NCBI GenBank assembly: GCA_951406725.2
Contig: OX597816.1
Location: forward strand, 158,782,001 to 158,846,000
Reading direction: 5' to 3'
Source: Octopus vulgaris
Taxonomy: Eukaryota
DNA length: 64,000 nt
The notes under the pieces were generated by a model. It was not told where the DNA came from. It saw only the letters and a list, made by a program, of their open reading frames with translations, and searched no databases. This document shows, in pieces, positions 10,101 through 62,597 of the stretch (the first letter of the stretch is position 1; each line of letters opens with the position of its first letter). The position numbers and the translations under genes were made by a program.

Positions 10101-11053
10101 AGCTCAACCATTTCTATGTGAGCATTTTCATATATAAATTTTCACCTTCATGTACCACATATGCCAATAGTTCATGTGTGTGTGTATGTATGTATGCATG
10201 TATAAACATGTGTATTTGTGCATGTATGTGTGAGTGTCTATGCATACATACATATATATATATATATATATAGTTTATAACCAGTTAAAAGAAGAAAAGA
10301 AAATGGAGATAAGGAAGTTAACAATTATTTATTACTAACGAATTGGTCATCTTCACTTCTTACAGCCGTTTCCTAACGCCAACCACTCCAAGAGTGTAGT
10401 GGGTGCTTTTACGTACCACCGGCACGAAGGTCAGTCAGGTGGTACGCTCAAATGGTGTTTTTTATGTGCCACCTGCAGAGGAACCAGTCCAGCAGCACTG
10501 GCAATGACTTTGCTCAAATGTTTTTTCACGTGCCACCAGCAAAAGTGCCATGGTGATGCTGGTAACGATCACAATCGAATGGTGCTTTTTACGTGCCACT
10601 TGCACGGAAGCCAGTTTGCTGCTCTGGCAGCTTGGATGGTGCTCTTAGCGCTCCATTAGCACAGATGCCATGCACTTGTATGCATATACATGTGTATAAA
10701 TCATTATCATTTTAATACCCACTTTTCCACACTAATATGTGTGTGTATGTATTTATATAACACATGATAGGCTAAATTATCAGCTGTTATACATTGTTCA
10801 TCACAATGTGCTATACAAGTTTAGCTTTAACACTGCTGGCCAGGTAAGCAGGCCAACATTTTCTCCAATCAGAAGGCTAATCTATTGCAAGCTTACCCAT
10901 TTACAGCTGAATGGACTATAGCAATGAAGTATTTTGCTCAAGAAGACAATGCTCCACTCAATCTTGGAATCAAACCTACAGTCACAAGATCACTAACACC
11001 TTTACCACATGCCTTCACACACTCACATGTATATTTGATTGTGTGTGTGTGTA

Positions 11054-11482
11054 CTCTTTTTACTCTTTTACTTGTTTTAGTCATTTGACTGCTGCCATAC
11101 TGGAGCACTGCCTTTTTTAGTCGAGTAAATCGACCCCAGGACTTATTCTTTGTAAGCCTAGTACTTATTCTATCAGTCTCTTTTGCCGAACCGCTAAGTT
11201 ACAGGGACGTAAACACACCAGCATTGGTTGTCAAGCGATGTTGAGGGGGACAAACACAGACACACAAACATATACACACATACATATATATATATATATA
11301 TGTATATATACTTATATACGACGGGCTTCTTTCAGTTTCCGTCTACCAAATCCACTCACAAGGCTTCGGTCAGCCCGAGGCTATAGTAGAAAACACTTGC
11401 CCAAGGTGCCACGCAGTGGGACTGAACCCGGGACCATGTGGTTGGTAAGCAAGCTATTTACCACACAGCCACTCTTACGCCT
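11054..11482 (-). mobile_element. Near full-length tRNA-derived SINE (family A)
   Basis: Reverse complement: A-box-like gtggctgtgtggtaa, B-box-like GGTTCAGTCCC, ccttgggcaagt, internal (TA)n, and a 3' part ending in gtaaaagagtaaaaagag; close to the copies at 37410 and 54087. Confidence 0.9.
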
Positions 11483-11870
11483 CTACTTCATATAGATATG
11501 AATACGTATTTGTATGCATGTGAATATAAATACACGTGTGGGTGGATGGATGGATGGATGGATGGATGGAAGGAAAGACAGATATTTCTTCATTTGTGTG
11601 AAGTCACTCAAATAACAAAAAAAAACCGATTTTCTGGGAATCATTGGCTTCAAATAAATAACTAAACCCTAATATCTGTCTTGAGTACTTTTCCTCTCCT
11701 CCCTTTTATACTGAGAACAAAATCACAAACCACCTCCCCACCACTAAACATGCTATCAGTAGACCCTCTCCTAATACTACCACCATCAGAAGTAGAGGTA
11801 CTACCACCCTACAGTAAAGCCATAGCTGACATCACCACCACCACCTCAAAGTAATACACAATACACACAC

Positions 11871-11923
<53 letters not shown>

Positions 11924-12900
11924 GGAGACAAGAATAGATTTGTGTTCTTCAGATAGTTATTAATATTGTTTCCAGTGAATCTGGTCAAATTTAGAGATGT
12001 GATCCAAAGTGTAAATGATGAGATGAACAGAGATAAGAGATTTCCAAGCTTGCCAGAAGCGTACAGATGTATGATGCACCAATGTCTATCAATTGTCTTC
12101 AATGAGATGTAATTAAAATGATAGCTATTAATATGCACACACAAACTCTCATACACACATATATAAACATATTTGTACATAGATACATACATACATACAT
12201 ACACACACACATACATACATACATACATACACACACTCCTGTGTGTTGCATATTTTTATCATACTCATGTGACCCAAAATACCTGTGGCATTTAAAATCT
12301 TGTTTGTGTATTCATATGTATGTATTTATATACATGTGTGTACATGTGTATTCATACACAGCCATCTGTATGTGCATGCGTGTGTGTATATATATTATAC
12401 ACACACACATGCACACATAAATGCATATGCATGCAAGCACACACGTGTATGTGTGCATCTGTATGTATATGGATGCATGTGTACGTACATGTATAATTAG
12501 TTTTGCACTTTGTGCATGAGTTCATGTGCATGCATATTGTGCATACTTGTATGCATGTTTATATGTGATCTTCGAAACAGGCATACAGACATACATGCCA
12601 CACAAACAGAGAAACATGTCTAGCAGGAAGCTTCTTTCAATTCTACCATATTCTCGGTTATAATGATTAAATGAAAGCAAGCATCAATAATTCAAGATTC
12701 CTGTACACGATCAGTATCCAATCCTCATTATTTTAACATTTGATATTCTTCGTTTTTATTGGATGGCTTCATTGGTAAATACAGTATTTTCCCATCTTCA
12801 TCTTAATTAAATAGATAAAAACATTATTACTCTTAGTTTACAAATCAAAGAGTCCCTGGTTCAAATCTAGTTTGGAAAAAATCTAGGAATGAGCCTAAGT

Positions 12901-13058
12901 GCAGGCATGGCTGTGTGGTTAAGAAGTTTGTTCCTCAATCCAGTGGTTTTGGGTTCAGTCCCACCAGGCAACACCTAGGGAAGGTGTCTTCTTCTGTTGC
13001 CTAGACCAATGAAATCCTTGTGAGTGGATTTGGTACACAGATACTGAAAAAAGCCTAC

Positions 13059-13117
<59 letters not shown>

Positions 13118-59552: not shown

Positions 59553-59757
59553 ACCACATTTTAGACCACTTTTCGAAGGGAATGAAAAATAAAAACTTTT
59601 ACCTTGTTATTTTTTGCAGTTATACCTAGGTTTCAAATTTCTTTAGCAAATTATTTTATTTGCTAAAGAAATTTGAAACCTAGGTATAACCATAAAAAAA
59701 TAACAAGGTAAAAGTTTTTACTTTTCATTCCCTTCGAAAAATGCTCTAAAATGTGGT
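59553..59757. repeat. Foldback/MITE-like palindrome, ~100-bp arms with 6-nt loop
   Basis: accacattttag...ctttagcaaat-tatttt-atttgctaaag...ctaaaatgtggt. Confidence 0.85.
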
Positions 59758-61926
59758 ACTTTGCGAACGAATGATCTTGCAACATTTAGAAAGTTGCTAA
59801 TTTCTAAATCACTGTGGTTTGCATGTATAGCAAGTAGAAATTTATAGAAAAACAAAAGACAAAGACAGGTGTATGAACAACAAACAGGTGTATTAGTTTG
59901 ACACTCATGTTTGTGTGTGTGTGGTGGGCTTCTTGGATAGTCCAGGGTTATAGCAGAAGACACTTGTCAAAGATGCCATGCAGTGGCACAGAATCCAAGA
60001 CCACATGGTAGGGAAGCAAGTTTCTACACCACATAGCCATACCTGTGCTTATCGATGTGAAACTGAAAATAACTCAAGCTCAACTACCAGACTTATAAAA
60101 AAAATTTTTTTAAGTACTGGTGGTTGGTTTGTTTGACTAAATTTTTCAAGGCGATACTCCAGTGTGGCCGCAATTCAATGCCTGAAACAAGTTTAAAATT
60201 ATCGGACTTTTTCATCCTAAATACTTTTCTATCGGCTTTTTACCACAAATTCTGATAAGGATAAATAAATTATATACTGTTGTTACTAAGAAAGATACCC
60301 CGAATTTCAAATTAACACACTGTGATTTGAGAAGAACCAGTACTGGCCCTTTTATTCCGAAAGACCGTTAACCCTTCTTTTTATGTAACGATATAAACAA
60401 GTTTATCTACATCAAGGATATTAACTACAAAGCTCTCATAGCCCCTCTCTCTCTTCCTCTTCTTTACATCAACTGGGTCGAATTCTTTTGGTCTTTAGTT
60501 CGCTTGTAAACTGTTTGACTCCTTTATCAGGTTATTTTAACAAGATTTGTCAGGGGTGTTTTATAAATAAACATTACTGCCTTTTCATTTTAACTCATAA
60601 AATATATTTGCATGTTCATAATAATAAAACAAACAACACAAATCTGTCTGTTTAGACACTTTTATCTGTGTGATTTCAATAAGAGAAATCACTCAGAAAT
60701 GATTTCCAAATTTCAGTATTTGTTTACTTTTAATCCTGAAATAAAAAACAGCAATGTGATAAATAATATTTATTTCGTGATTATTTACGTAACTAATATT
60801 ACACAAATCACTAAATACGATGTAATTCCCAAATACACAAGTAATCACTATTTGATGAGCCAATCGCAATAAAATAGCCAGAGTAATTGCCGGCAGATTC
60901 TGGCTAGTTTGTAATTTCAAATTGCTTTAGCTTTTCTATTTAATGAGATCATCTATCAATTTTCAATGTGCATTTGGATAAATCCAATACGATTACATTG
61001 CCTAATGATCCATTAACCCTAATTTTTTTTTACACATTGCGACAAATCCACATAATTTAGTAGTGCAGGGTTTTACATGCGATTGAATTTTAGGACGTAT
61101 CGGATCGATATTTTATTAACCCCCTGGGGATGAAATATAAAGGGACTAGACGAGACTTTAGATTTTGGTCAAAGAGGTGACGATCCTAAAGCGTTGCCTG
61201 GCATCTAAGCAAATGATGACAATGTTAGGAATGGTTTAAAATTATTAGAACGAGCCGAAGATTGAGCTTCAACGTGACCACTCGAATTGCTAGAAATAGT
61301 AACCAAATCTCCATATTAATGTCTTGAATAGTGTCTAACAAAAATTTTTTTTTTTAAAAAAAGGGAAAAAAGAAAGAAAAAATGGGAATGCTTGTAATCG
61401 CGAATCCTTTGATGTTGGATCAGGGCAGATCAAAGACTGAAAGAAATTACATTTTTACGGTTTTATTTTGCAATGAACTGGATATATTGTATGGCGCGCG
61501 TGTATACATAACGTTATTAGGTAACTTCAATCACTTCATATTAATTTCCAACCCAAGGCATGAGGCAGAGACAGTCAATCAAACAAAACAGTATACTACT
61601 GGTATTATTATGTTGAGCAAATCGCAGGATGATGAAAAGCAAAGTGATCTTCAGCATGACTTGAACTCAGCGGAATGAAACTAAATACCATAATGCAATT
61701 TTGTGTGTGATGTTTTGCTAATGCAACCTTTCCATCTATTATATATACAGTTATATATATATCATACGACTATTAGAGGCCAACCCCACAAATTATTGAA
61801 AGTCAAGAGACAAACGTAAACCTCGCCAAGGTGTGTTCTTTATATATATTAACATTAATTCAAGATAAAGAGCAGTGGGATTGGTTGGGTTGTCTTAAGA
61901 TTGCAATAGACAGAAATATATATATA

Positions 61927-62149
61927 CTTTATTTAAAGCAGCAGAAAATTCAGCAAAATCTGTTACTCTGAGTTTCTCGTTGCCGTTCATCAGACAGTTT
62001 TTACAAAAACTGTCTGATGAACGGCAACGAGAAACTCAGAGTAACAGATTTTGTTGAATTTTCTGCTGCTTTAAATAAAGCATATTACTATACCACTGGT
62101 ATTTGAGTACTCTTTTTTCCCACCTTGTTTCACATTTATGTGTTTACTC

Positions 62150-62152
<3 letters not shown>
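61927..62152. mobile_element. Short palindromic pLTR-like element in (TA)n, with a hammerhead on both strands
   Basis: Arms 61927-62002 and 62005-62080, followed by a unique tail to the (TA)n run. Confidence 0.75.
62006..62052 (+). ncRNA. Minimal type I hammerhead (stem II closing pair mutated)
   Basis: aaaactgt-CTGATGA(62014)-acg-GCAA-cga-GAAA-ctcaga-GTA(62041)-acagatttt; stem I ctgt/acag; GNRA loop on stem II. Confidence 0.65.
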
Positions 62153-62194
<42 letters not shown>

Positions 62195-62198
<4 letters not shown>

Positions 62199-62597
62199 TA
62201 AAAAGCGGTAAGATAACAAAAGAAAGAAAAAGACCTCAATATTATGTAAATAGAGGAAATTTATCTGTAAAATAATATGCTACAATTACTCAATAGTCAA
62301 GATAAAACTCTGAGTTTCAGATGCCGAAGTGGAAATCCACAACACCATCTCTTCATATGCTTATCTCTGGTGTGTTTACGTCCCCGTAACTAAGCGGTTC
62401 GGTAAAAGAAACCGATAGAATAAGTACTAGGCTTACAAAGAATAAGTCCTCGGGTCGATTTGCTCGACTAAAGGCGGTGCTCCATCTCTTCGGTTATCTG
62501 GCCAGATAACCGAAGAGATGGTGTTGTGGATTTCCACTTCGGCATCTGAAACTCAGAGTTTTATCTTGACTATTGAGTAATTGTAACATATTATTTT
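62195..62597. mobile_element. Palindromic pLTR-like element with a variant hammerhead and a captured inverted SINE segment
   Basis: Arms ~62269-62354 plus 62482-62501 versus 62502-62597; motif agataa-CCGAAGA(62510)-gatg...catct-GAAA-ctcaga-GTT-ttatct. Confidence 0.65.

What the first reader, a model, noticed from the sequence alone, without database searches (positions are those of the whole stretch)
10355..62566. About eight distinct hammerhead-bearing mini-elements in one 64-kb window
Seen: cores or remnants at 10361-10372 (minus, half), 23454-23532, 30870-30890 (minus, half), 39703-39725, 41864-41945, 57056-57100, 59138-59253 (plus mirror), 62006-62052 (plus mirror) and 62504-62566. Flanking sequences look unrelated, and most abut (TA)n tracts. 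Established: minimal type I hammerheads with palindromic loop III mark PLE pseudo-LTRs and retrozymes. Inference: this genome hosts a diverse, high-copy radiation of TA-targeted non-autonomous ribozyme retroelements that protein-based annotation would miss. Intact copies could cleave an overlapping pre-mRNA.
Basis: partly seen in the sequence, partly recalled or inferred. Interest (0 to 1): 0.75.

Follow-up and report, generated by a model that had tools for sequence, protein, structure and literature searches.

The report
Hammerhead-bearing ends of Penelope retrotransposons
The nine ribozyme-like motifs are real, but six are tail ends of Penelope-type jumping genes already known to carry such motifs, one more probably is, two sit in short units with no gene found, and the few intact copies are unlikely to cut host RNA.

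Summary
All nine loci belong to multi-copy families with a type I minimal hammerhead. Stem I pairs in 9 of 9 families, against 4 of 72 mismatched pairings. A descriptor tuned on them finds 12 hits in a held-out 400 kb versus 0-1 per shuffle. The window is not special: the same families give 26 insertions per 400 kb, roughly 10^5 genome-wide. They are mostly not independent mini-elements: six families have a Penelope-like RT/GIY-YIG frame upstream in longer copies (four Hydra-type, one Poseidon-type, one unresolved), and the copy at 57056 keeps an endonuclease remnant. Two families look protein-less; one is a 583-nt head-to-tail, retrozyme-like unit. Only three loci match their family core, and each is locked in a fold-back, so cutting of host pre-mRNA is unlikely. 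Best side finding: the Poseidon-type 3' repeat holds a tRNA-Arg-derived A/B-box head where 26 of 30 copies begin; the scan noted this element, and a related retrozyme, before on other DNA of this genome. Known kind; moderate interest.

The parts
10270..10372 (-). F10: 3' half of a minimal hammerhead (GAAA box, stem III palindrome, cut triplet, stem I 3' strand) plus tail; 5' half lost at the border with another repeat. Family unit about 575 nt, no frame found
23454..23725 (+). F23: hammerhead 23454-23532 (both boxes intact, 15.2 C>T weakens the palindrome) and tail of a 583-nt head-to-tail protein-less unit; abuts (TA)n on both sides
30775..30882 (-). F30: 3' half of a hammerhead and tail between two (TA)n tracts; family core has U at position 6; GIY-YIG frame upstream in copy L182
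39630..39817 (+). F39: solo terminal repeat; hammerhead 39699-39728 with first box intact, stem II decayed and the stem I 3' strand deleted
41855..42100 (+). F41: 3' end of a Hydra-type PLE; hammerhead 41864-41945 with G8>A (end coordinate approximate)
56530..56865 (+). F57: broken C-terminal GIY-YIG endonuclease frame of a Penelope/Poseidon-type PLE (start approximate)
   Evidence: RVT_1 in family copy L273
56904..56976 (+). F57: decayed tRNA-Arg-derived segment with A- and B-box positions, in the 3' untranslated repeat
57057..57150 (+). F57: hammerhead (A13>G and altered cut triplet, so broken) and tail
58206..58814 (-). F59: inverted arm with intact mirror hammerhead 58402-58511
58830..59446 (+). 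F59: 3' repeat of a young Hydra-type PLE; hammerhead 59141-59250 identical to family; ends at (TA)n
61922..62002 (-). F62a: inverted arm with mirror hammerhead 61960-61997
62005..62152 (+). F62a: solo terminal repeat of a young Hydra-type PLE; hammerhead 62010-62047 identical to family (A.A at 10.1/11.1, 2-bp stem II)
62259..62354 (-). F62b: partial mirror copy lacking the first box, separated from the main copy by a piece of another repeat (62355-62481)
62482..62598 (+). F62b: short fold-back (62482-62525) and hammerhead 62504-62566 identical to family (U4C core); young Hydra-type PLE

Best explanation
Six of the nine sites are hammerhead-bearing 3' ends of protein-coding Penelope-like retrotransposons, one more is likely the same, and two lie in protein-less units of about 580 bases that are likely copied by the same enzymes. 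Inferred mechanism: the element's GIY-YIG nuclease nicks AT-rich DNA, mostly (TA)n; its reverse transcriptase starts just downstream of the hammerhead and copies towards the RNA's 5' end; it usually stops early or reaches the RNA start, often folding back, which leaves 100-600-base solo repeats and head-to-head pairs. The hammerhead is predicted to work only as a dimer through its palindromic stem III, in tandem element transcripts and perhaps with the element's protein; the scattered copies are likely inert by-products. Many families have done this at different times, giving on the order of 10^5 such ends in the genome.
For: Shown: family membership of all nine sites. Stem I 3-6 Watson-Crick pairs in 9 of 9 family representatives vs >=3 in 4 of 72 non-cognate pairings, permutation 1 in 200,000; 15.1-16.1 self-complementary, with a C-G to U-A change at 15.2/16.2 in F41. 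Two-sided stem I change in 12 of 48 F23 copies. Frame upstream on the same strand: F59 (743 aa in L218; stop-free frames up to 994 aa at 92-99% identity), F41 (L221, L078, L080, L084), F62b (L122, L128, L130), F62a (L026), F57 (window copy and L273, L276, L277, L279, L281), F30 (L182 only). Terminal repeat directly before the frame in 13 of 30 F59 loci. Upstream inverted copy in 12/20 F10, 8/20 F30, 4/12 F57, 12/30 F59, 17/30 F62a, 18/30 F62b loci and in 6 of 8 truncated F57 frames. F59 protein has DKT, RWR, CxCx5C, CxxC/CxH as described for Hydra (PMC8557442 section 11); F57 has DKG. Nearest relatives are eukaryotic RT + HTH_animal proteins. F23 tail runs straight into its own upstream part in 39 of 55 loci, period 583, longest stop-free stretch 75 aa. 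Literature: single min-hammerheads as truncated PLEs, opposite-strand pairs, dimer requirement and low activity (PMC4209133); protein-assisted cleavage, not needed for insertion (PMC11167929).
Against: No contiguous frame for F39: the GIY-YIG piece in L159 is separated from the repeat by about 600 unrelated bases. F30's link rests on one copy. F10's lack of a frame is absence in 105 loci, not proof, and no partner shares sequence with F10 or F23 beyond one 35-nt, E=0.012 match. Inverted copies are rare in F23 (1/25), F39 (0/20) and F41 (1/30). Five families lack the usual G10.1-C11.1 pair and two have altered core boxes. Generic descriptors and Rfam do not pick the motifs out. Pfam finds nothing in the 960-aa frame; clade calls rest on motifs, not on a tree. 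No cleavage or expression data.
Confidence: 0.88

Rival explanations
1. All nine are independent protein-less ribozyme retroelements (retrozymes) that spread through their own circular RNAs.
For: Most copies are short and many start at a fixed 5' edge (F62a 23 of 30, F62b 17 of 30, F39 18 of 19 within 15 nt). F23 is a real head-to-tail unit. Retrozymes derived from PLE ends are described (bioRxiv 10.64898/2026.07.22.740005).
Against: Six families continue upstream into an RT/endonuclease frame; only F23 shows tail-to-head continuity.
Confidence: 0.07
2. Intact copies act as cis-acting cleavage sites in a host pre-mRNA that spans the window.
For: Three loci (five cores counting mirrors) match their family exactly.
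Against: Each lies in a fold-back that pairs the core with its own complement: 98% complementary arms at 58206-59446 and 61922-62085, and a hairpin over the first box at 62482-62525. Mirrors are antisense, so they cannot supply the dimer partner. Single min-hammerheads showed no cleavage in vitro (PMC4209133). No host gene was identified.
Confidence: 0.04
3. The motifs are chance matches in an AT-rich, repeat-rich sequence.
For: Loose descriptors give as many hits in shuffles as in the window; four of seven window copies fold no better than shuffles (z between -1.3 and 0.1).
Against: Cross-family stem I test, held-out descriptor test, conserved position at PLE 3' ends.
Confidence: 0.01

Closest known systems
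Minimal hammerheads in the pLTRs of metazoan Penelope-like elements (Cervera and De la Pena 2014, PMC4209133; parts 1-2 of 4 read)
   Same: Type I order, short stem I, palindromic 15.2-16.2 region, many families per genome, mostly single copies from truncated elements, some opposite-strand pairs.
   Different: Counts quoted there are thousands (about 9,000 in Xenopus tropicalis); my sample implies about 10^5. Five of nine families lack G10.1-C11.1; young families carry U4C or an A.A mismatch; one old family has U6.
Hydra clade of C-terminal-endonuclease PLEs (Craig et al. 2021, PMC8557442; sections 3 and 11 and passages read)
   Same: F59 protein has RWR, DKT, divergent RT4, CxCx5C linker, CxxC and CxH, canonical hammerhead and (TA)n ends; F41, F62a, F62b share the C-terminal motifs.
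   Different: F59 is longer than the <3 kb described (frame 2.9 kb plus about 2 kb to the ribozyme). No tree was built; the paper's supplements, which may already list cephalopod families, were not opened.
Penelope/Poseidon PLEs, e.g. Poseidon of Anolis (Frangieh et al. 2024, PMC11167929; parts 1-2 of 4 read)
   Same: F57 has DKG, a standard RT core, a CxC pair inside the GIY-YIG motif, a 3' hammerhead and no (TA)n bias.
   Different: F57 carries a tRNA-Arg-derived head in its 3' repeat, at which most short copies begin.
Metazoan non-LTR retrozymes (PMC7229834, passages; bioRxiv 10.64898/2026.07.22.740005, part 1 of 5 and passages)
   Same: F23: non-coding, head-to-tail, one type I hammerhead per unit, low GC.
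   Different: 583-nt unit (150-450 quoted), mostly 1-1.5 units, minimal rather than canonical ribozyme; circular RNA not shown.
Schistosome SINE-like hammerhead repeats (as reviewed in PMC6765202, passages; primary paper not held)
   Same: Pol III-type promoter combined with a hammerhead in a short retroelement.
   Different: In F57 the head lies upstream of the ribozyme inside the 3' repeat of a protein-coding PLE, and copies show PLE-type fold-back insertions.

Membership tests
Minimal type I hammerhead of PLEs | CUGANGA ... GAAA ... UH core in type I order | tested here: met
   Majority core strict in 7 of 9 families; strict copies 59/74, 41/48, 43/69, 22/31, 43/103, 24/24, 28/39. F30 (U6; 1/50 strict) and F62b (C4; 3/29 strict) are variants.
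Minimal type I hammerhead of PLEs | Stem I closes the motif, with family-specific sequence | tested here: met
   3-6 WC pairs in 9 of 9; >=3 in 4 of 72 non-cognate pairs.
Minimal type I hammerhead of PLEs | Palindromic stem III / loop 3 for dimer formation | tested here: met
   Fully or all-but-centre self-complementary in 7 of 9 representatives; F10 6 of 8; F30 representative decayed but majority palindromic.
Minimal type I hammerhead of PLEs | G10.1-C11.1 pair, usually after one unpaired base | tested here: inconclusive
   Present in F30, F39, F57, F59; A-U in F10 and F41; mismatch or shifted pair in F23, F62a, F62b.
Minimal type I hammerhead of PLEs | Self-cleavage as a dimer | not testable with these tools
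   Needs in vitro assay.
EN+ Penelope-like element | Single RT + C-terminal GIY-YIG frame upstream of the ribozyme | tested here: met
   Met for F59, F41, F62a, F62b, F57, F30; not found for F39, F10, F23.
EN+ Penelope-like element | Direct pLTR before the frame | tested here: met
   13 of 30 F59 loci; not seen in 8 truncated F57 loci; other families not tested.
EN+ Penelope-like element | Inverted 5'-truncated copy next to the insertion | tested here: met
   Common in six families, rare in F23, F39, F41.
Hydra clade | RWK-like, DKT, CxCx5C, no CCHH pair, CxxC/CxH motifs | tested here: met
   Read by eye in the 955-962-aa F59 frames; only C-terminal motifs available for F41, F62a, F62b.
Hydra clade | Length generally under 3 kb | tested here: not met
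   F59 frame 2.9 kb plus about 2 kb to the ribozyme.
Hydra clade | Phylogenetic placement with reference Hydra RTs | not tested
   No reference set fetched.
Non-LTR retrozyme (F23) | Non-coding head-to-tail units, each with a hammerhead | tested here: met
   Tail-to-head junction in 39 of 55 loci (a few places fetched twice); two whole ribozymes 583 nt apart in L389; longest stop-free stretch 75 aa.
Non-LTR retrozyme (F23) | Expression as monomeric linear and circular RNA | not testable with these tools
tRNA-derived SINE (short F57 copies) | tRNA-derived head with A and B boxes at the 5' end | tested here: met
   48 of 68 aligned columns identical to a host tRNA-Arg(ACG) gene from G1 on; score 70 vs shuffled maximum 50 of 2000 (the 3' part of the match is partly built in by the search pattern). 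A box in 29 of 30, B box strict in 4 and CpG-decayed or strict in 27 of 30. ARAGORN default and Rfam negative.
tRNA-derived SINE (short F57 copies) | A lineage separate from its autonomous partner | tested here: inconclusive
   The same head sits in the 3' repeat of frame-bearing copies, including the window's; 5'-edge pile-ups also occur in F62a, F62b, F39, which have no tRNA head.
tRNA-derived SINE (short F57 copies) | Transcription by RNA polymerase III | not testable with these tools
   T-run counts were not informative.

The most novel reading that the evidence does not exclude
A Poseidon-type Penelope element captured a host tRNA-Arg gene into its terminal repeat and uses its A/B boxes as a polymerase III promoter, producing a 270-base tRNA-head + hammerhead RNA that the element's own enzyme copies back as tens of thousands of SINE-like insertions: a Penelope-driven SINE born inside its partner.
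Probability: 0.45. Interest if true: 0.65.

Novelty: new member of a known kind. Interest (0 to 1): 0.38.

Why it matters
The link between minimal hammerheads and Penelope-like elements is published, so the finding as given is an expected pattern. What adds value is scale and material: about 10^5 ribozyme-bearing ends from many families in one genome, young families with intact 950-990-aa enzymes beside fixed core variants (U4C, A.A at 10.1/11.1), and a protein-less 583-nt unit. These allow a direct test of the open question whether PLE hammerheads must cut for the element to spread. The tRNA-headed repeat, if transcribed by polymerase III, would show a route by which Penelope elements give rise to SINE-like passengers.

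Tried and rejected
Generic hammerhead descriptors on the window: not above shuffles. Rfam on the window: no hammerhead in the 150 rows shown of 215; one sub-threshold Hammerhead_1 hit (21.8 bits, E 0.47) in 8 F57 loci. tblastn of three Hydra-type proteins against the window: nothing better than E 0.46; the F57 remnant was found only by walking the family. First guess that 10361-10372 was a deletion product of the adjoining repeat: rejected. First label 'Neptune' for F59, F41, F62a, F62b: replaced by Hydra after reading. The 630-nt shared upstream flank of two F23 copies is another repeat. F39 frame link via L159: not contiguous. ARAGORN default and Rfam do not call the tRNA-like head; at 80% threshold 10 of 30 copies vs 30 of 300 shuffles. 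T-run test for polymerase III: 12 of 14 units lack TTTT vs 22% background, but the unit is T-poor and copies are related; frames show no depletion. Pfam and PDB sequence searches of the F59 protein: no match. Host gene search by masking and open frames: nothing convincing (one search timed out). Sequencing runs: no RNA holder listed; contigs of four runs laid on 52000-64000 could not show ends, strand or expression. The density sample covers contigs C1-C11 only, because a third batch could not be fetched. One search's output was partly cut and swamped by (AAT)n; only its tail rows were used. Lunse et al. 2016/2017, Ferbeyre et al. 1998 and Ohshima and Okada 1994 could not be read (the last seen only in reference lists), so whether the core variants or the tRNA-headed element are described there is open; Repbase was not available.

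
Full report
Setting. The window is G000:C3:158782001-158846000 in a 2.8-Gb animal genome, about 36% GC and full of microsatellites. It is probably an octopus: this rests on my recollection of octopus repeats, a 42% relative of the F59 protein in Argonauta and earlier notes. I name families by window position: F10, F23, F30, F39, F41, F57, F59, F62a, F62b.

Observation. All nine sites exist as cited. Each matches a dispersed family (40 candidates scored per search out of 275-3673). 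For the two half sites, other copies supply the missing first box and stem II. Taken alone the window is weak evidence: three generic descriptors gave 2, 1 and 20 hits against 0-2, 0-3 and 7-19 in ten shuffles each, and Rfam showed no hammerhead in 150 of 215 rows. The family level is decisive. Stem I forms 3-6 Watson-Crick pairs in 9 of 9 representatives but three or more in only 4 of 72 mismatched pairings (permutation 1 in 200,000), and the 15.1-16.1 stretch is palindromic with different sequence in each family, including a C-G to U-A swap in F41. Twelve of 48 F23 copies change both sides of a stem I pair. A descriptor with the palindrome rule, written after seeing the families, finds 12 hits in 40 evenly spaced 10-kb stretches against 0-1 per shuffle (8 shuffles), 5 in the window against 1 in 30 shuffles, and about 15 further stem I/palindrome combinations in all fetched loci.

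Density. In the 400-kb sample (contigs C1-C11) the nine cores and their relatives give 31 BLAST hits, 26 insertions after merging inverted pairs: about 4 per 64 kb, or 1.2-2.7 x 10^5 genome-wide by Poisson limits if the sample is typical (clumping would widen this). The window's nine insertions defined the query set, so its count is biased upward; by descriptor it has 3 insertions against 1.6 expected. The window is therefore ordinary for this genome.

What the elements are. [quoted passage not shown] A protein search returns 148 scored matches, with stop-free frames up to 994 aa, and 13 of 30 fetched loci have the ribozyme-bearing repeat directly before the frame. The protein has RWR, DKT, CxCx5C, CxxC and CxH motifs, as listed for the Hydra clade, which inserts into (TA)n (PMC8557442 section 11). 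Pfam and PDB miss it; relatives are eukaryotic RT + HTH_animal proteins. F41, F62b and F62a have related C-terminal frames upstream on the same strand. F57 continues upstream into a Penelope/Poseidon-type frame (RVT_1 E 2e-8; DKG motif), and the window copy itself keeps a broken endonuclease piece at about 56530-56865; this family is old (about 70-85% amino-acid identity with stops). F30 has a GIY-YIG frame upstream in one copy, L182. F39 resembles F30 (82% over 34 nt) but no contiguous frame was found in 45 loci. F23 is different: its tail runs into its own upstream part in 39 of 55 loci, giving a 583-nt unit without a frame, with two whole ribozymes in L389. F10 is a unit of about 575 nt with a fixed 5' edge and no shared upstream sequence in 30 loci; PLE frames seen in its 105 loci belong to other families and are not placed upstream on the same strand. 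Head-to-head inverted copies are frequent in six families and rare in three. (TA)n follows the 3' end in most families but not F57.

State of the window copies. F10 and F30 are halves; F39 has lost its stem I 3' strand; F41 has G8>A; F57 has A13>G; F23 has a weakened palindrome. F59, F62a and F62b match their young families, which include many 98-100% identical copies. All three are in fold-backs: 98% complementary arms or a hairpin covering the first box. A read-through transcript would bury the core in duplex, and the mirror is antisense, so it cannot be the dimer partner (inference). Published single minimal hammerheads did not cleave (PMC4209133), and the Anolis one needed the element's protein and was not required for insertion (PMC11167929). 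I found no host gene. Cleavage of a host pre-mRNA is thus unlikely.

Core variants. F62b has C at position 4 in 24 of 29 distinct copies; the same change occurs in 14 of 69 F39 and 9 of 39 F62a-like copies; F30 mostly has U at 6; F62a has A.A at 10.1/11.1 where relatives have A-U. U4C is a known natural variant with reduced activity (PMC3088659, passage). That a family with U4C has spread recently suggests weak or dispensable cutting (inference).

The tRNA-headed repeat. About 40 nt after the F57 stop codon lies a 73-nt segment with A- and B-box positions. ARAGORN at default and Rfam miss it. A pattern built from its 3' half found 31 genomic sites; of ten fetched, five are tRNA-Arg genes, one is called tRNA-His, two are F57 copies and two are uncalled. 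A good F57 copy aligns to tRNA-Arg(ACG) from G1 at 48 of 68 columns, the 5' half being independent of the pattern. Of 30 copies found with the head as query, 26 begin within 9 nt of the anchor, against 3 of 30 for a query starting 55 nt upstream; 27 of 30 are followed by the ribozyme and 19 of the 26 short ones abut an inverted piece. In flanks not fetched for F57, 5 of 7 copies that include the head's start begin there. Against over-reading: F62a, F62b and F39 also show sharp 5' edges without a tRNA head, so the pile-up probably marks the RNA's start in general; RNase P cutting at G1 is an alternative for part of it; no full-length F57 with an upstream direct repeat was seen in 8 loci.

Mechanism. 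Shown: anatomy, frames, inversions, (TA)n flanks, copy density. From the literature: AT-rich nicking and internal priming (PMC11167929), dimer-dependent weak ribozymes (PMC4209133). Inferred: solo repeats arise when copying starts downstream of the ribozyme and ends early or at the RNA start; F23 and F10 borrow these enzymes; F57 short copies may come from polymerase III transcripts.

Comparison with print. PLE minimal hammerheads, their mostly single occurrence and opposite-strand pairs are described (PMC4209133, parts 1-2 of 4). Retrozymes as PLE derivatives are proposed (bioRxiv 10.64898/2026.07.22.740005, part 1 of 5 and passages; PMC7229834, passages). A 2026 octopus repeat annotation lists 31 recently active PLE families and has no occurrence of 'hammerhead' or 'ribozyme' in its main text (PMC13282606, part 1 of 3 and term search); the giant squid paper reports 235 Rfam hammerheads (PMC6962438, passage). 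Searches, and term look-ups in PMC10886601, PMC4758252 and PMC3531059, found no description of octopus PLE hammerheads or of a tRNA-headed PLE repeat; schistosome Pol III hammerhead repeats are the nearest precedent (PMC6765202, passages). Three primary papers were not held, no supplements were opened (those of PMC8557442 and PMC4209133 may list cephalopod families), and Repbase was not available.

Verdict. Interest 0.38.

Noticed in passing
window 6857-7126 (-): A 21-bp repeat array reads as a 90-aa stop-free heptad-repeat peptide in otherwise non-repetitive DNA; could be a coding exon of a host coiled-coil protein.
   Followed up: no
window 41063-41614 (+): 183-aa stop-free piece of an RTE-like LINE reverse transcriptase C-terminus (label recalled), ending shortly before the F41 insertion.
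   Followed up: no
window 55162-55464 (+): Tc1/mariner-like transposase fragment (label recalled).
   Followed up: no
window 59595-59715 and 47024-47107: Two further near-perfect palindromes that hit only microRNA models below threshold; may be fold-back insertions of other families.
   Followed up: no
F62b copies, e.g. L116, L117, L120 upstream of the match: A pyrimidine run ending in AG lies just before stem I, where 17 of 30 copies begin; like the intron end next to the ribozyme in Drosophila virilis Penelope.
   Followed up: partly
G000:C2:211893160-211907106: Tandem cluster of tRNA-Arg-like genes at about 206-bp spacing; one fetched is tRNA-Arg(TCG).
   Followed up: partly
L222:5400-6227, L154, L041: F62b-type frame pieces 93-100% identical at unrelated loci, a very young Hydra-type family whose ribozyme has the U4C core.
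   Followed up: partly
L452, L453, L471, L484, L223, L499, L042, L059 and others: About 15 further minimal hammerheads with other stem I and palindrome sequences, i.e. more families than the window holds.
   Followed up: no
L219: The two F41 copies 3.4 kb apart lie in a local duplication with mariner pieces, not at the ends of one element.
   Followed up: partly
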